The notes under the pieces are model-generated. The model had not been told where the DNA came from, did no database searches, and saw nothing but the letters and a program-made list of their open reading frames with translations. Positions 6,350 through 9,410 of a stretch of DNA of 46,874 bases are shown here, piece after piece. The stretch is from Escherichia phage SusanneMuster_Bas79. Position 1 is the stretch's first letter, and each line of letters starts with the position of its first letter. A program made the position numbers and the translations under genes. The stretch is taken from sequence record PQ850629.1; one strand, given 5' to 3'.

Positions 6350-6357
6350 CTTATCAG

Positions 6358-6435
6358 CATACACAGAACGAATATTATTATCGCATACACAGAACGAATA
6401 TTATTATCGCATACACAGAACGAATATTATTATCG
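6358..6435. repeat. tandem direct repeat, 3 x 26 bp (CATACACAGAACGAATATTATTATCG) plus partial flanking copies
   Basis: three perfect consecutive copies read directly from the sequence, in a convergent intergenic region. Confidence 0.9.
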
Positions 6436-6470
6436 CATAGCACAATATCTCTACGACGCTGAATATTGTT

Positions 6471-7079
6471 TTAATCATCAAGTTTCACGCCGGGAATTTT
6501 GCCTGCTGCGATGGCTTCATAAATTAGCTTAGCCTCATCCTCGCGCTTGTAATCTTGCGCTACCATTTCTAATACCGCGCAGATAGATTCAAGTACAGCC
6601 TCATGCTTCCTTTCTGCTTCTGTGCGAAATGGGATGAAAACATCCTTATTGGATGGGGTTATTGCGTAGTAAATCTCACCAGATGGTCTGATAACTATTT
6701 TTTCGCCATCAAGACCAATAACCTTGACTTTTCCCCATGACGTTCCGTTGCTGATATACTCACATTCACACCCAACTGGCGGCAGTCCTTCTCCGTTCCA
6801 TGCTGAATTTTTCGATGCTGCGAGTGCTGCTTTGTATTGCCAATAGGTTACTATCGACTCCTTATGGTCGGAAGATAATTGCGTAGCCCATTCTTCTCCA
6901 TACCAGAAATGCACAAGGCTATTTCCTGTGTGATGTTTCCATGAGAACCCATCATAGTGTGGGTCATTTGTGTCCCATGCGCACAGCGAACCGTCATTAT
7001 CTTGAGTAATTGACAGCGCGTTTTGAGGCCACCAACCACGCTTAGGCAATTCTTGAACTAACAGGTCGATAAGTTTCAT
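6471..7079 (-). CDS. hypothetical protein (202 aa, Trp-rich)
   Basis: long ORF on minus strand, first of a leftward cassette between head and lysis genes. Confidence 0.5.
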   Translation of the reverse strand: MKLIDLLVQELPKRGWWPQNALSITQDNDGSLCAWDTNDPHYDGFSWKHHTGNSLVHFWYGEEWATQLSSDHKESIVTYWQYKAALAASKNSAWNGEGLPPVGCECEYISNGTSWGKVKVIGLDGEKIVIRPSGEIYYAITPSNKDVFIPFRTEAERKHEAVLESICAVLEMVAQDYKREDEAKLIYEAIAAGKIPGVKLDD

Positions 7080-7091
7080 TTTTGTTCTCCG

Positions 7092-7307
7092 TTAATAATT
7101 TGGCTTTACGTCTTTCATTGTTAGTGGCTTCCATCCACTTGCGATTGCAATATCAATACAATCCTCAAGCGTTTCAGCTTTTATTGGCTCACCAACTTCA
7201 CTATCATCAAATTTTCTCTGTATTTGATAGCCATCTACGACATAAAGAATCTCTACAGAACCATGTAGTGTGTGCATCGACTCAAGCCATTGCAGGTGGT
7301 AGCTCAT
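7092..7307 (-). CDS. hypothetical protein (71 aa)
   Basis: ORF with 4-nt overlap to upstream gene. Confidence 0.4.
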   Translation of the reverse strand: MSYHLQWLESMHTLHGSVEILYVVDGYQIQRKFDDSEVGEPIKAETLEDCIDIAIASGWKPLTMKDVKPNY

Positions 7308-7585
7308 TTTGTTCCCCCTAATGCCTTATTAACCGCAGCACGCGCATTATCTAGAGCGCGGCGCTTACTTGATGTTGTCCAGACTTTGCCGGAGTGGTCG
7401 TCGTAGATTTCCAGTAGTTGCTGGAGTGCTGATAGCATGGCCTTGTTATTATCGTGGCAATACCCAACAGAAAAGCCATGCCATAATTCATCCTTTTCTC
7501 TATCGGTCATGTCGCCAAACCCAACCGAATCAAACCATTCAATAAATAATTGGTACACTTCGCGTTGCGTCATTATCAACCTCAC
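7304..7585 (-). CDS. hypothetical protein (ATG at 7573 gives 89 aa)
   Basis: ORF on minus strand; track start is an alternative codon. Confidence 0.4.
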   Translation of the reverse strand: MRLIMTQREVYQLFIEWFDSVGFGDMTDREKDELWHGFSVGYCHDNNKAMLSALQQLLEIYDDHSGKVWTTSSKRRALDNARAAVNKALGGTK

Positions 7586-7725
7586 TTAATATATTCAATA
7601 ATCTCAACTTCACGCATCTGCACCAGACTAAATGGCGCAACCACTTTGCCGCATGGGCGGATTTTGATTTGCTCAAGGCCGAACATTCCGCAGCGTCCGT
7701 TTTCTTTGAATTTGACCATTACCAT
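7582..7725 (-). CDS. hypothetical small protein (47 aa)
   Basis: hand-translated ORF (MVMVKFKENGRCGMFGLEQ...), first gene after the divergent promoter. Confidence 0.3.
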   Translation of the reverse strand: MVMVKFKENGRCGMFGLEQIKIRPCGKVVAPFSLVQMREVEIIEYIK

Positions 7726-7740
7726 AATTTCTTCCTCACT

Positions 7741-7830
7741 CATCGTTTGATGTAGATACTATGCACCACCACTCAATCTACGTCAATAGCCATTGTGATA
7801 GAATTAATCATTATTTGAACAGGAGGCAGA
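7741..7830. promoter_or_regulatory. divergent promoter region with two conserved boxes
   Basis: TGATGTAGAT (7748-7757, reverse orientation) and AATCTACGTCAA (7775-7786); extended -10 TGATAGAAT (7796-7804); AGGAGG before ATG 7831. Confidence 0.45.
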
Positions 7831-8109
7831 ATGAAACTATCGCAACGCGGCATGGAGGTGTTTGGAATTACCGATGCCGTAGATATATCGCCTTACATCA
7901 CCACTGAGACAACACAGAATCAGTTTGATGCGCTGACAAGCCTTGCCACCGACATCGGCATTGACTCGTTCCGCAAATCAACGCTTCTGAAGAAACACAA
8001 TCTCCGCTGCTTCTCATGTGTCGTCGCGCATTTCATCGTGTGGGGTGAGAAGACTGGCGACAAAGCAAAATGCAAGGCTGAAAAAGAGGTTTACTGGTAT
8101 GGCTATTAG
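7831..8109 (+). CDS. degenerate lysozyme-like protein (P22 gp19-type fragment lacking catalytic core), possibly a remnant
   Basis: N-terminus MKLSQRG and segment NQFDALTSLATDIGIDSFRKSTLLKK resemble lysozyme N-terminus and the conserved NQ-[FY]-DAL...STLL-[RK]-K region, but the E-G-x-R-L / TIGYGHT catalytic segment is absent; overlaps next gene by 11 nt. Confidence 0.45.
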   Translation: MKLSQRGMEVFGITDAVDISPYITTETTQNQFDALTSLATDIGIDSFRKSTLLKKHNLRCFSCVVAHFIVWGEKTGDKAKCKAEKEVYWYGY

Positions 8110-8563
8110 CAAAAACATGAAGGCGTTTCTGGATATGCTGGCGTACAGCGAGGGCACTGATAACGGGCGGCAGAAAACCAATAATCATGGTTATGATGTG
8201 ATTGTTGGCGGCTCACTGTTTACCGACTATTCCGATCACCCGCGCAAGCTGATTAGCCTGCCTAAGCTGGGCATCAAATCCACTGCCGCCGGGCGCTATC
8301 AGGTGCTGGCTAAATTTTATGATGCGTACAAAAAGCAACTGCGCCTGCCTGACTTCTCCCCCGCGTCACAGGACGCTATCGCAATGCAACTAATCCGTGA
8401 ATGCAAAGCCACCGCCGATATTGAGACTGGTCGCATTGCTGATGCTATCCATAAATGCCGCTCCCGCTGGGCTTCATTACCGGGCGCTGGCTATGGTCAG
8501 CATGAGCAGAAGCTGGATAAGTTGATTCAGGTATACAAAGAGGCTGGCGGAGCTGTGGCATGA
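8099..8563 (+). CDS. endolysin, lambda R-type lytic transglycosylase
   Basis: MAISKNMKAFLDMLAYSEGTDNGRQKTNNHGYDVIVGG...FTDYSDHPRK...WASLPGAGYGQ closely parallels phage lambda R along its length. Confidence 0.9.
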   Translation: MAISKNMKAFLDMLAYSEGTDNGRQKTNNHGYDVIVGGSLFTDYSDHPRKLISLPKLGIKSTAAGRYQVLAKFYDAYKKQLRLPDFSPASQDAIAMQLIRECKATADIETGRIADAIHKCRSRWASLPGAGYGQHEQKLDKLIQVYKEAGGAVA

Positions 8564-8799
8564 AAAAGCTAAGCAACTGGCTGCTCGGCGCGTGGATTTC
8601 ATTCTGCTCACTATTGCAGCTATGGCCTGATGCAATGATGCACGTGTGGGTAATGATGCCGGACGACCTGAAAGCGGCGCTACCGCCAATCGTGGTCAAA
8701 GGTGTAAGCTACTCCATCATGCTGGTTGGTATTCTCGGAAAAATGCACGGCATGAGGAAGGAGAACCGGAGGCTGCGCAATGATGTCAATTCTCGCTAA
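8560..8799 (+). CDS. putative holin or small membrane protein
   Basis: 79 aa with two hydrophobic segments (WLLGAWISFCSLL, VSYSIMLVGILG) and basic C-terminus; lies between endolysin and spanins. Confidence 0.35.
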   Translation: MKKLSNWLLGAWISFCSLLQLWPDAMMHVWVMMPDDLKAALPPIVVKGVSYSIMLVGILGKMHGMRKENRRLRNDVNSR

Positions 8800-9271
8800 A
8801 TACTGGCGACCACTGGCAATTATTATAATTGTTGTCTCTGGCGCGTTGTGGGCGCGTAGCGAAATCATCAGCTACGGCGACCAACGATACGCAGAAGGCA
8901 AATCCCAAGCAATCGCCGAACAGAAGGCCGCAGACGAACAAGAGGAGCAACGACGCAATGCAGAACTGCAAAAGATTCAGGCTGACGCACAGCAAAGGAT
9001 TGACGCTGCGCGCAATGATGCTGTCAATGCTGCTGCTAAGTCTGGCAGGTTGCAGCAACAGCTCGCAAATATCCGCAAGCAGCTCGTCGGATATTCCACC
9101 GCTGAGTCCATTGGCAATCCAGCCGCAGAAACCGGAGTTTTGCTTGGAGACGTGCTCGGCAAATCTGTCGAAAGAAATCGACAACTGGCAGATTATGCTG
9201 ACAGGGCAAGAGAGGCAGGATTAGCGTGTGAGGCGCAGTATAATTCGCTGCGTAATAAAAAAGCCCCGTGA
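8780..9271 (+). CDS. i-spanin (Rz-like)
   Basis: N-terminal transmembrane segment LAIIIIVVSGALWA followed by a charged coiled-coil-like region; position after endolysin. Confidence 0.7.
   Translation: MMSILAKYWRPLAIIIIVVSGALWARSEIISYGDQRYAEGKSQAIAEQKAADEQEEQRRNAELQKIQADAQQRIDAARNDAVNAAAKSGRLQQQLANIRKQLVGYSTAESIGNPAAETGVLLGDVLGKSVERNRQLADYADRAREAGLACEAQYNSLRNKKAP
9015..9224 (+). CDS. o-spanin (Rz1-like lipoprotein) embedded in +1 frame of the i-spanin gene
   Basis: MMLSMLLLSLAGCSNSS lipobox followed by Pro-rich DIPPLSPLAIQPQKP; entirely inside 8780-9271 in another frame. Confidence 0.7.
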   Translation: MMLSMLLLSLAGCSNSSQISASSSSDIPPLSPLAIQPQKPEFCLETCSANLSKEIDNWQIMLTGQERQD

Positions 9272-9290
9272 TGGGGCTTGTGTTTAATTG
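9255..9290. terminator. bidirectional rho-independent terminator
   Basis: A-tract, stem AAGCCCC / GGGGCTT, T-rich tail; between convergent lysis and leftward cassette. Confidence 0.55.
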
Positions 9291-9410
9291 GTTTGTTAAG
9301 ATTCTTCCCGCTGCTTCCACATCTGTTTCAGCTGGAAATAAGCATACGCTTCATCACCATCTTTCGCATTGCGCTCCATTTGCTCACACCATGCCGATGG
9401 TTTTGGCGGC

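What the first reader, a model, noticed from the sequence alone, without database searches (positions are those of the whole stretch)
7831..8563. Degenerate lysozyme-like ORF overlapping an intact lambda-R-type endolysin
The 92-aa ORF begins like a P22-gp19-type lysozyme (MKLSQRG) and retains NQFDAL...STLLKK but lacks the catalytic Glu-containing segment and the TIGYGHT-type core, then overlaps by 11 nt the start of a complete lambda-R-type transglycosylase. This looks like the footprint of endolysin replacement, leaving a non-catalytic remnant that might be a pseudogene or might have been repurposed, for example as an antiholin or regulator. No holin precedes the endolysin; the only candidate is the 79-aa membrane ORF downstream.
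Basis: partly seen in the sequence, partly recalled or inferred. Interest (0 to 1): 0.5.

Follow-up and report, generated by a model that had tools for sequence, protein, structure and literature searches.

The report
Conserved dead half-lysozyme beside real endolysin
The small gene in front of this phage's endolysin is a lysozyme that has lost its catalytic half, yet it has been kept intact by selection across many related phages and beside two different working endolysins, so it is probably a non-enzymatic lysis helper and not a dead remnant.

Summary
ORF 7831-8109 (92 aa) is a GH24 (T4/P22-type) lysozyme that lacks about 54 residues, including the catalytic Glu/Asp/Thr lobe. It overlaps by 11 nt an intact lambda-R-type endolysin (8099-8563), which is followed by a class II holin and an embedded Rz/Rz1 pair. 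The window is a Skatevirus, nearly identical to Escherichia phage Bas77.

Sister phages (HC6, Roufvirus) carry one full-length GH24 at the same place, so an endolysin replacement did occur. The remnant is not a pseudogene:
- All 36 distinct copies examined keep 92 codons.
- Only the annotated frame is stop-free in all of them.
- dN/dS is 0.12, and 0.08 in the C-lobe.

Short alleles only 42-61% identical, with saturated synonymous sites, keep the same architecture. One allele class sits in front of a GH108 endolysin instead of the R-type. Two contigs look like intermediates: full-length GH24 plus R-type, and full-length GH24 with the catalytic Glu and Thr replaced plus GH108. AlphaFold2 gives a confident all-helical C-lobe (pLDDT 97).

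Most likely this is a catalytically dead GH24 domain kept for a non-catalytic role in lysis. That role is unknown. Databases and one paper call the protein an endolysin.

The parts
7796..7804 (+). Extended -10 promoter-like element (TGATAGAAT) for the rightward lysis operon
   Evidence: Sequence. The block ATTGTGATAGAAT is conserved upstream of the GH24 or short gene in type A, B and C loci, HC6 and Roufvirus. The consensus scan did not call it because there is no good -35. Function is inferred.
7821..7826 (+). Shine-Dalgarno AGGAGG of the short ORF, 4 nt before the ATG
   Evidence: Sequence. Conserved in relatives.
7831..8109 (+). Short GH24-derived ORF (92 aa): N-terminal helix plus C-lobe, with the catalytic N-lobe absent
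   Evidence: dN/dS is 0.12, the ORF is intact in 36/36 distinct copies, and it is the only stop-free frame. AF2 gives pLDDT 97.2. The fold matches GH24 endolysins, TMq up to 0.84.
7882..7887 (+). Approximate junction (codons 18|19) where about 54 codons of the full-length GH24 are missing. The exact breakpoint is ambiguous within codons 8-19.
   Evidence: Protein alignments A1 and A3. DNA homology to HC6 ends at 7852.
8059..8064 (+). Second, 5-codon gap (VMNGL of full-length forms) between codons 77 and 78
   Evidence: Shared by all short alleles.
8084..8089 (+). Shine-Dalgarno AAGAGG of the R-type endolysin, inside the short ORF, 9 nt before ATG 8099
   Evidence: Sequence. Annotated as an RBS in Skate.
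8099..8563 (+). Lambda-R-type endolysin (lytic transglycosylase family), 154 aa, soluble
   Evidence: E=4e-62 to PDB 3d3d/1am7 and 67% identity to lambda R, with SEGT Glu conserved. phrog_90. dN/dS 0.035. No hydrophobic segment.
8560..8799 (+). Class II holin candidate (79 aa, DUF7940). Its ATG overlaps the endolysin stop (ATGA).
   Evidence: Pfam DUF7940 E=1e-9 and phrog_13249 'holin' E=3e-52. Two hydrophobic segments centred near residues 14 and 51, with a basic C-tail. Annotated as class II holin in Skate.
8780..9271 (+). i-spanin (Rz-like, DUF2514), 163 aa
   Evidence: Pfam E=1.7e-30 and phrog_312.
8958..9224 (+). o-spanin (Rz1-like) embedded in the +1 frame of Rz, lipobox LAGC
   Evidence: Translation. 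Same position as the annotated O-spanin of Skate.
9261..9279 (.). Bidirectional intrinsic-terminator-like hairpin ending the lysis operon
   Evidence: Annotated as a terminator in Skate.

Best explanation
ORF 7831-8109 is a real protein-coding gene kept by selection. It encodes a catalytically dead GH24 lysozyme domain: the N-terminal helix plus the all-helical C-lobe.

**History, inferred from comparison**
- Skate/Rouf-type siphoviruses originally lysed with one GH24 endolysin, encoded directly before the holin.
- In some lineages a second endolysin gene was inserted between GH24 and the holin. It is R-type here and GH108 + PG_binding_3 elsewhere.
- GH24 catalysis then became dispensable. The catalytic residues and later the whole N-lobe were lost.
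- The C-lobe stayed under purifying selection.

**Mechanism I commit to (inferred, not shown)**
- The ancestral endolysin had a second, non-catalytic job carried by its C-lobe, and the short protein still performs it.
- It is made from the same late promoter, as the first gene of the lysis operon, and is translationally coupled to the working endolysin.
- It has no signal sequence or membrane segment, so it accumulates in the cytoplasm.
- It most probably acts by binding a partner to tune lysis, not by cutting peptidoglycan.

**Probabilities**

| Claim | Probability |
|---|---|
| Functional selected protein | about 0.95 |
| Non-catalytic | about 0.9 |
| Role within lysis | about 0.6 |
| Specifically a protein-binding or timing regulator | about 0.35 |
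For: **Selection**
- 36 distinct nucleotide copies all have 92 codons and no stops. dN/dS is 0.118 (bootstrap 0.065-0.19). Variable sites by codon position are 28/17/73. Every other frame has more than 110 stops in total.
- Codons 19-78 give 0.077 and the N-terminal 18 codons give 0.35.
- These values sit beside holin 0.11 and Rz 0.23.

**Depth**
- Short alleles of 90-98 aa at 42-61% identity share the same gaps.
- Between allele classes pS is 0.69-0.85 (saturated) with pN 0.11-0.29, while the adjacent R gene is 95% identical.

**Independence from the catalytic partner**
- In the 55 loci held here, every short form is followed at once by a second endolysin wherever the contig continues (one contig, L052, ends at that point). 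The second endolysin is R-type in 52 loci and GH108 + PG_binding_3 in 2.
- Every lone GH24 in this cluster is full-length.
- The type C short form has omega 0.21, with a nearly invariant C-lobe at pS 0.52.

**Intermediates**
- L053 has a full-length GH24 with an intact FEG/D/T followed by an R-type gene.
- L054 has a full-length GH24 with the catalytic Glu changed to Tyr and Thr changed to Arg, followed by GH108.

**Loss of enzyme features**
- The catalytic Glu column (98% E in 54 full-length sequences) is D, N or E in the short forms.
- The Asn that is 98% conserved in full-length forms (YN-I-G) is D, S or A.
- The GKVxxGL loop is deleted.
- No N-lobe is encoded elsewhere in the window.

**Fold**
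- AF2 gives pLDDT 97.2 and pTM 0.90.
- The best structural matches are GH24 endolysins.
- An independent BFVD model of the KFS-SE2 homologue matches at TM 0.98.

**Expression signals**
- The promoter-like element and strong SD are conserved, and the ORF overlaps the next start.
Against: - There is no direct evidence of translation or of any phenotype.
- No partner was identified. Distance-matrix correlations of the short protein with R (0.61), holin (0.44) and Rz (0.42) fall off with map distance as plain linkage would predict, and they vanish within type A.
- The same R and holin alleles work with short alleles that are only 53% identical. This is awkward for a tight specific interaction.
- The CxxC motif, conserved at a helix N-terminus, could point to a role in the oxidising periplasm rather than the cytoplasm.
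- One paper reports about 1 log killing by the trigger-factor-tagged homologue, 'lysin2' of phage swi2 (PMC8185280).
- L053 and L054 are 1.1-kb metagenomic contigs. L053 could be a natural recombinant rather than an ancestor-like state.
- The shallow-alignment AF2 run was poor (pLDDT 53), so the confident model leans on full-length GH24 homologues in the alignment.
Confidence: 0.55

Rival explanations
1. The short ORF is a decaying pseudogene, a neutral remnant of the replaced endolysin that has not yet been erased.
For: It lacks the catalytic lobe. A complete endolysin follows it. Its amino-acid sequence evolves faster than R, at 88-96% versus 95-100% identity within type A.
Against: - There are 0 stops or frameshifts in 36 distinct copies, and dN/dS is 0.12 with CI 0.065-0.19.
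- The architecture is kept across alleles with saturated synonymous divergence and across two different downstream endolysins.
- The two apparent frameshifted copies (P0029, P0033) come from an error-prone assembly in which R and the holin are also broken.
Confidence: 0.03
2. The ORF is kept open only as a leader. Ribosomes translating it are delivered to the overlapping start of the R-type gene (translational coupling), and the peptide itself has no function.
For: - The overlap is 11 nt here, 14 nt in type B and 4 nt in type C.
- The promoter and strong SD lie upstream of the short ORF.
- The SD of R lies inside the short ORF.
Against: - A leader needs an open frame, not a conserved sequence, yet omega is 0.077 in the C-lobe core, far from either junction.
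- R has its own good SD.
- In sister phages the endolysin sits directly behind the same promoter and SD, so deleting the leader would be easy. It has not happened in more than 50 protein clusters.
Confidence: 0.07
3. The short protein is still an active muramidase, a second minimal endolysin, as GenBank/PHROG annotation and the swi2 paper state.
For: - It is annotated 'endolysin' or 'endolysin/glycosidase, has Ex5Dx8T motif'.
- PMC8185280 reports about 1 log reduction of E. coli by the TF-tagged 92-aa homologue, inside and outside cells.
- E9, D15 and T24 are well conserved within type A.
Against: - The canonical GH24 triad is E-x8-D/C-x5-T on the N-terminal helix and N-lobe, and that lobe is absent.
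- The E9/D15/T24 pattern is not conserved in type B (K/E, N/E, S/R) and is absent in type C.
- The substrate-cleft Asn and a cleft loop are lost.
- The swi2 assays used 52-kDa trigger-factor fusions, showed marginal effects (0.01<P<0.05), found no EDTA dependence and had no catalytic-mutant control.
Confidence: 0.07
4. The short protein is a non-catalytic peptidoglycan-binding module. It is released through the holin lesion and helps or directs the catalytic endolysin in the periplasm.
For: - In T4 lysozyme the C-lobe forms much of the substrate groove (own knowledge).
- The structural core residues of that lobe are retained: Q31, D33, S37, G43, F47, S50, N57, W71, R81, E84.
- The conserved CxxC at a helix N-terminus could form a disulfide after export.
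- The function would be independent of which catalytic endolysin is present.
Against: - The cleft residue equivalent to T4L Q105 (Asn, 98% conserved in enzymes) is free to vary.
- The loop after the invariant Trp is deleted in all short forms.
- Gram-negative endolysins normally need no binding module.
- A free binding domain would compete with the enzyme for substrate.
Confidence: 0.15
5. The short protein works outside lysis, for example as an anti-defence decoy or a superinfection or competition factor. Highly divergent alleles are therefore exchanged between otherwise similar genomes.
For: Alleles at 53% identity sit in flanks of 84-93% DNA identity, and the trough of similarity is confined to the short ORF. 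That pattern is typical of genes in arms races. No co-variation with the lysis partners was found.
Against: - It always occupies the first position of the lysis operon and is always coupled to the endolysin.
- Within each allele class selection is purifying, not diversifying.
- Mosaic allele exchange is common for ordinary phage genes too.
Confidence: 0.12

Closest known systems
Full-length GH24 endolysins of syntenic sister phages (Escherichia phage HC6, Klebsiella phage VLCpiS13e, Aeromonas phage pIS4-A / Roufvirus); more distantly P22 gp19
   Same: Same genomic position behind the same conserved promoter and SD. Identical MKLSQRG start and 45-52% identity over the C-lobe. Same KHN-x2-C-x2-C motif. 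Followed by the same DUF7940 holin and DUF2514 spanin.
   Different: The full-length proteins have 144-149 aa with the FEG...D...WTxGYG catalytic lobe and are the only endolysin in the cassette. The window protein lacks that lobe and a 5-residue loop. It has T-D instead of Y-N in the cleft motif and ends in YWYGY.
SpmX muramidase domain of Caulobacterales (PDB 6h9d), a phage GH24 domain co-opted for a non-lytic role
   Same: It is a GH24 fold retained for a job other than cell lysis. It is among the structural matches of the model, TMq 0.80-0.82.
   Different: SpmX keeps the whole two-lobe domain inside a large membrane protein of a bacterium (own knowledge). Here only the C-lobe remains, as a free 92-aa phage protein inside a lysis operon.
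T7 lysozyme (gp3.5), a bifunctional phage lysozyme that also binds and regulates T7 RNA polymerase (own knowledge, not tested here)
   Same: It is a precedent for a phage wall hydrolase with a second, non-catalytic, protein-binding function that is under its own selection.
   Different: It belongs to a different fold (amidase_2), and both functions reside in one intact protein. No homology and no viral RNA polymerase partner is known here.
Small accessory proteins of lysis cassettes: T4 RIII (cytoplasmic antiholin cofactor) and mycobacteriophage Ms6 Gp1 (chaperone-like first gene overlapping lysA) (own knowledge)
   Same: They are small soluble proteins without membrane segments, encoded with or overlapping the lysis genes, that act by binding a lysis protein.
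   Different: No sequence or fold relationship exists; Pfam and PHROGs find only GH24. The partner of Ms6 Gp1 is one specific endolysin, whereas the short protein here accompanies two unrelated endolysins.
'lysin2' of Escherichia phage vB_EcoS_swi2 (PMC8185280) and phrog_10457 'endolysin'
   Same: They are the same protein family: swi2 MT768060 27415-27693, 92 aa, and the PHROG profile of 95 positions matched end to end at E=1.6e-39.
   Different: Those sources treat it as an active lysin. Neither notes that the catalytic lobe is missing or that the gene is a conserved truncated form.
C-terminal subdomain of T4 lysozyme (residues 1-12 plus 60-164), known as an autonomous folding unit (own knowledge)
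   Same: The retained parts correspond, namely the N-terminal helix plus the helical C-lobe. The predicted fold is compact and confident.
   Different: That is a laboratory construct of an active enzyme. This is a natural gene product, and in type C variants even the N-terminal helix is eroded.

Membership tests
GH24 / PF00959 phage lysozyme (for ORF 7831-8109) | Significant match to the family profile | tested here: met
   40.4 bits against a gathering cut-off of 22.3, E=4.5e-10, but only profile positions 55-114 of 125. PDB GH24 chains score down to E=5e-9.
GH24 / PF00959 phage lysozyme (for ORF 7831-8109) | Catalytic Glu with Asp/Cys and Thr (E-x8-D/C-x5-T) | tested here: not met
   The 54-column gap removes the D and T positions. 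The Glu column (98% E in 54 enzymes) is D in type A and D, N or E elsewhere. The annotated 'Ex5Dx8T' has the wrong spacing and is not conserved in types B and C.
GH24 / PF00959 phage lysozyme (for ORF 7831-8109) | Two-lobe fold with a beta-sheet N-lobe forming the substrate cleft | tested here: not met
   The AF2 model is all-helical (six helices, no strand) with pLDDT 97. No N-lobe is coded elsewhere in the window.
GH24 / PF00959 phage lysozyme (for ORF 7831-8109) | Helical C-lobe fold | tested here: met
   Foldseek top hits are all GH24 endolysins, TMq 0.68-0.84. BFVD gives the same result.
GH24 / PF00959 phage lysozyme (for ORF 7831-8109) | Muramidase activity | not testable with these tools
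   The only report is a weak killing assay with a trigger-factor fusion of the swi2 homologue.
Pseudogene | Disrupted frame or neutral evolution (dN/dS near 1) | tested here: not met
   0 stops in 36 distinct copies, omega 0.118 (0.065-0.19), and the other five frames are full of stops.
   Pfam and PHROGs hit only lysozyme families. There is no membrane-length hydrophobic stretch; the maximum 15-residue hydropathy is 1.57, in a core helix.
   The co-variation test gave no holin-specific signal.
Lambda R-type endolysin / lytic transglycosylase (for ORF 8099-8563) | Full-length similarity to lambda R | tested here: met
   E=4.3e-62 to 3d3d and 1am7 over residues 3-153, with 67% identity.
Lambda R-type endolysin / lytic transglycosylase (for ORF 8099-8563) | Catalytic Glu (Glu19 of lambda R, motif SEGT) | tested here: met
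   YSEGTDNGRQ aligns with WSEGTDNGRQ.
Lambda R-type endolysin / lytic transglycosylase (for ORF 8099-8563) | Transglycosylase chemistry (1,6-anhydro product) | not testable with these tools
   Inferred from homology only.
Class II holin (for ORF 8560-8799) | Family match, two transmembrane segments, charged C-terminal tail | tested here: met
   DUF7940 E=1.1e-9 and phrog_13249 E=3.3e-52. Hydrophobic peaks lie near residues 14 and 51, and the tail is KMHGMRKENRRLRNDVNSR.
Class II holin (for ORF 8560-8799) | Hole formation and lysis timing | not testable with these tools
   The swi2 paper saw no activity of a TF-holin fusion, which is uninformative.

The most novel reading that the evidence does not exclude
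The GH24 endolysin of Skate/Rouf-type siphoviruses is bifunctional. Its helical C-lobe carries a second, non-enzymatic activity that the phage cannot do without, for example control of lysis timing through a protein partner. When another endolysin takes over wall cleavage, that activity survives as a free 90-98-aa 'dead half-lysozyme'. This would be a new class of lysis-cassette component derived from the endolysin itself.
Probability: 0.3. Interest if true: 0.75.

Novelty: new variant of a known kind. Interest (0 to 1): 0.55.

Why it matters
- **Annotation.** About 140 GenBank phage genomes and a PHROG family label this protein 'endolysin', and one paper promotes it as an antibacterial lysin. 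The sequence evidence says it cannot be a canonical lysozyme, so these annotations and enzybiotic efforts are probably misdirected.
- **Lysis biology.** A lysozyme fragment kept under purifying selection beside two unrelated working endolysins implies that phage endolysins can carry a second function separable from catalysis. That idea has few precedents (T7 lysozyme).
- **Tractability.** Bas77-81 are in the public BASEL collection and grow on E. coli K-12 with restored O16 antigen. Natural variants exist for each state: GH24 only, active GH24 plus R, dead full-length plus GH108, and truncated plus R or GH108.
- **Evolution.** The locus is also a clean natural series for how an enzyme turns into a pseudoenzyme.

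Tried and rejected
1. **Compensated frameshifts as evidence for a leader-only role.** P0029 and P0033 appeared to have them, but the P0033 contig (L068) also has broken R and holin calls, so these are assembly errors.
2. **Independent N-lobe deletions in other phage groups.**
   - P0123 first looked like a P22-type lysozyme with an internal deletion. It is colinear with the last 98 residues of gp19, so it is a partial gene call.
   - Most other roughly 100-aa hits of the representative search likewise begin inside the enzyme.
   - P0061 (101 aa, TADIGID motif) may be a true short form, but no context was found. Its nearest viral locus has a full-length gene.
3. **Split enzyme.** No N-lobe is coded anywhere else in the window.
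4. **Frameshift fusion of the short ORF to R.** R lies in the +1 frame and its frame is open from 8018. No slippery site or conservation argues for fusion, and the frame test shows that only the annotated frame is constrained up to 8098.
5. **Partner identification by co-variation.** The result is no better than linkage.
6. **AF2 with only short-family sequences.** It gave pLDDT 53, so a deeper alignment was needed.
7. **An apparent 71%-identical full-length relative (L064).** The match is only a 24-residue local hit.
8. **Viral-contig scans for type C (P0041, P0209).** They found nothing.
9. **Literature.** Searches found no description of a truncated or inactive lysozyme in these cassettes.
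Full report
**What is there**

The window is a Skatevirus-type siphovirus. Region 7700-9300 is 99.9% identical to Escherichia phage ClaudiaMuster_Bas77, and 187 GenBank phage records match it. Bas77-81 belong to the Skatevirus cluster, whose outgroup is Roufvirus (PMC11990801).

Between two leftward gene blocks lies a rightward lysis operon:
- a conserved extended -10-like element at 7796-7804;
- a strong SD at 7821-7826;
- the 92-aa ORF 7831-8109;
- a 154-aa ORF 8099-8563 that starts 11 nt before the first ORF ends and has its own SD at 8084-8089;
- a 79-aa ORF 8560-8799 (ATGA overlap);
- Rz 8780-9271 with Rz1 embedded at 8958-9224;
- a bidirectional terminator at 9261-9279.

**Check of the observation**

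- The 92-aa protein passes the Pfam threshold for PF00959, but only over profile positions 55-114. It matches solved GH24 lysozymes only in their C-terminal halves.
- I aligned it with the full-length GH24 proteins found at the same genomic position in Escherichia phage HC6, Klebsiella phage VLCpiS13e and Aeromonas phage pIS4-A. It shares their first seven residues (MKLSQRG). It then lacks 54 columns holding FEG, PDP and WT(I/A)GYGHT, and it lacks five more residues near the C-terminus.
- The 154-aa protein is a complete lambda-R homologue, E=4e-62 to PDB 3d3d/1am7, 67% identity, SEGT Glu present.
- The 79-aa protein is a DUF7940 / phrog_13249 holin with two hydrophobic segments.

**Replacement footprint**

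HC6 is about 90% identical to the window in DNA on both sides. The homology stops at 7852 (codon 7 of the lysozyme gene) and resumes exactly at 8560, the holin ATG. The two genomes therefore differ by a cassette: one full GH24, or short GH24 plus R. The Roufvirus outgroup has the single full GH24.

**Not a pseudogene**

- I collected 36 distinct nucleotide versions of the ORF from GenBank and IMG/VR relatives. All have 92 codons and no stop.
- dN/dS is 0.118 (bootstrap 0.065-0.19). Variable sites by codon position are 28/17/73.
- In the other five frames there are 112-150 stops in total, and omega is about 1.4-2.0 in four of them.
- Constraint is strongest in the lysozyme-homologous core (codons 19-78, omega 0.077) and weakest in the first 18 codons (0.35).
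- For comparison, R is 0.035, the holin 0.11 and Rz 0.23.

**A deep family of short forms**

- Sequence and profile searches of the large protein collections found more than 50 clusters of 90-98-aa proteins with the same architecture at 42-61% identity to the window protein. I call the window class type A, the 93-96-aa class type B, and the class represented by P0041 and P0208-210 type C.
- Type B sits in the same synteny, in front of an R-type gene that can be 95% identical to the window's, while the short gene is only 53% identical.
- Synonymous sites between classes are saturated (pS 0.69-0.85) against dS 0.37-0.66 for R. The truncated form is therefore old, its alleles are exchanged by recombination, and it stayed under purifying selection throughout.
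- Type C is followed by a 171-aa GH108 + PG_binding_3 endolysin instead of an R-type gene, then a DUF7940 holin. Its C-lobe is almost invariant at pS 0.52 (omega 0.21 overall; GH108 0.016).
- Type C exists in at least two N-terminal versions (98 and 90 aa) behind the same promoter and SD.

| State | Loci |
|---|---|
| Short form directly followed by an R-type endolysin | 52 |
| Short form directly followed by GH108 | 2 |
| Short form, contig ends before the next gene (L052) | 1 |
| Lone GH24 in this phage cluster, always full-length | 3 |
| Full-length GH24 followed by a second endolysin | 2 |

The two contigs in the last row look like intermediates. L053 has an apparently active GH24 (FEG/D/T intact, but with the short-type C-terminal tail) followed by an R-type gene. 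L054 has a full-length GH24 in which the catalytic Glu is Tyr and the Thr is Arg, followed by GH108. Both contigs are only 1.1 kb.

**Why non-catalytic**

- I compared columns between 54 full-length enzymes and the short forms.
  - The catalytic Glu column (98% E) is D, N or E in the short forms.
  - The cleft Asn of the (Y/F)-N-I-G motif (98% N; equivalent to T4L Q105 by my alignment from memory) is D, S or A.
  - The GKVxxGL loop after the invariant Trp is deleted.
  - The structural core is kept: Q31, D33, A34, S37, G43, F47, S50, L52, L53, N57, F68, W71, R81, E84.
- New conserved features of the short forms are an acidic residue at position 45 and the tail E-(K/R)-E-(V/I)-Y-(W/Y)-Y-G-Y. 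The tail is conserved even in type C, where it is not overlapped by the next gene.
- A CxxC at the N-terminus of a predicted helix is shared with the full-length enzymes of this phage cluster only.
- No N-lobe is encoded elsewhere in the window.
- The 'Ex5Dx8T motif' noted in the Skate record has the wrong spacing and is not conserved outside type A.

**Structure**

- With only short-family sequences AF2 was unconvincing (pLDDT 53).
- With an 89-sequence alignment that included full-length relatives it gave pLDDT 97.2 and pTM 0.90, with six helices and no strand.
- Foldseek finds only GH24 endolysins. TMq is 0.83-0.84 to 7m5i, with the N-terminal helix aligned across the gap. The hits include the co-opted SpmX domain 6h9d.
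- The independent BFVD model of the KFS-SE2 homologue matches at TM 0.98.
- The retained parts correspond to what is known for T4 lysozyme as the autonomously folding C-terminal subdomain (own knowledge).

**Mechanism**

*Shown.* The gene is a selected coding gene. It lacks the enzyme's catalytic apparatus. It is the first cistron of the lysis operon, and its stop overlaps the start of whichever catalytic endolysin is present.

*Inferred.* The ancestral GH24 had a second function in its C-lobe, which the short protein still supplies. It has no export signal, so it accumulates in the cytoplasm until the holin fires. I favour a protein-binding, lysis-tuning role over peptidoglycan binding because the cleft residues are released from constraint. 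This is weakly based:
- distance-matrix correlations show no partner beyond linkage;
- the same R and holin alleles coexist with very different short alleles;
- the CxxC could equally point to a periplasmic role.

The rivals are listed with probabilities: pseudogene, coupling leader, active mini-lysin, PG-binding module, and a function outside lysis.

**What is known already**

- The family exists in PHROGs (phrog_10457, 'endolysin'), and about 139 GenBank phage records carry it at 80% identity or more. These are about the same set of records that carry this R-type gene (142 records).
- The Skate genome paper lists only the transglycosylase as the endolysin (PMC6606912), although the GenBank record calls the short ORF 'endolysin/glycosidase'.
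- The swi2 paper expressed both proteins as trigger-factor fusions and reported about 1 log killing for each (PMC8185280). The assays lack catalytic controls, and I do not regard them as evidence of muramidase activity.
- I found no paper that notes the missing lobe, the selection on the remnant, or its persistence beside different endolysins.

**Verdict**

The finding is a new variant of a known kind, a GH24-derived pseudoenzyme retained as a lysis-cassette component. Interest is moderate (0.55). It would be higher if a defined second function of endolysins were demonstrated.

Noticed in passing
window 8071: The window differs from Bas77 in the short ORF by one base (T instead of C), giving R81C. 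This Arg is invariant in 35 of 36 type-A copies, in all type B/C short forms and in all 54 full-length GH24 sequences compared. It may be a laboratory variant, a sequencing error or a loss-of-function allele.
   Followed up: partly
window 6351-6444: A 26-bp tandem repeat, 3.5 copies, 97% matches (TTATCGCATACACAGAACGAATATTA), lies in the gap after the head-morphogenesis gene.
   Followed up: no
window 7744-7830: The intergenic region holds back-to-back promoter-like elements. Rightward is TGATAGAAT (7796-7804). Leftward is TTGACG-17-CATAGT (7786-7758). The block TCAATCTACGTCAA is conserved even in Roufvirus, and part of it is kept in type-C contigs, so it might be a regulator site.
   Followed up: partly
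window 8008-8019 (codons 60-63 of the short ORF): A CxxC motif at the N-terminus of a predicted helix is conserved in all short forms and in the full-length GH24 of Skate/Rouf-type phages. Generic GH24 has D..G there. This geometry is typical of redox-active or metal-binding sites, and its significance is unknown.
   Followed up: partly
L054 95-538 (Logan SRR25288731 contig) and L053 332-763 (Logan SRR10682192 contig): Full-length GH24 genes are followed by a second endolysin. L054 has the catalytic Glu changed to Tyr and Thr changed to Arg, with GH108 next. L053 has intact catalytic residues but the short-type tail, with an R-type gene next. These could be intermediate or recombinant states, and only 1.1 kb of each is available.
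   Followed up: partly
window 7092-7307 and neighbouring leftward ORFs 6471-7743: The leftward genes just upstream of the lysis operon are highly mosaic. The 71-aa ORF 7092-7307 was found in only 3 of 39 related loci, and other ORFs match at 30-65% identity or not at all.
   Followed up: no
L041 4950-5120; L069 3450-3593; L004 3441-3584: Some relatives have an extra small ORF (47-56 aa) between the holin and the spanin, or after the spanin. It is absent from the window.
   Followed up: no
PHROGs phrog_7910 (profile of 96 positions, 'endolysin'): A second short 'endolysin' PHROG weakly matches the C-lobe (E=3.5e-4). Other phage groups may also carry short GH24-derived proteins. I did not examine this.
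   Followed up: no
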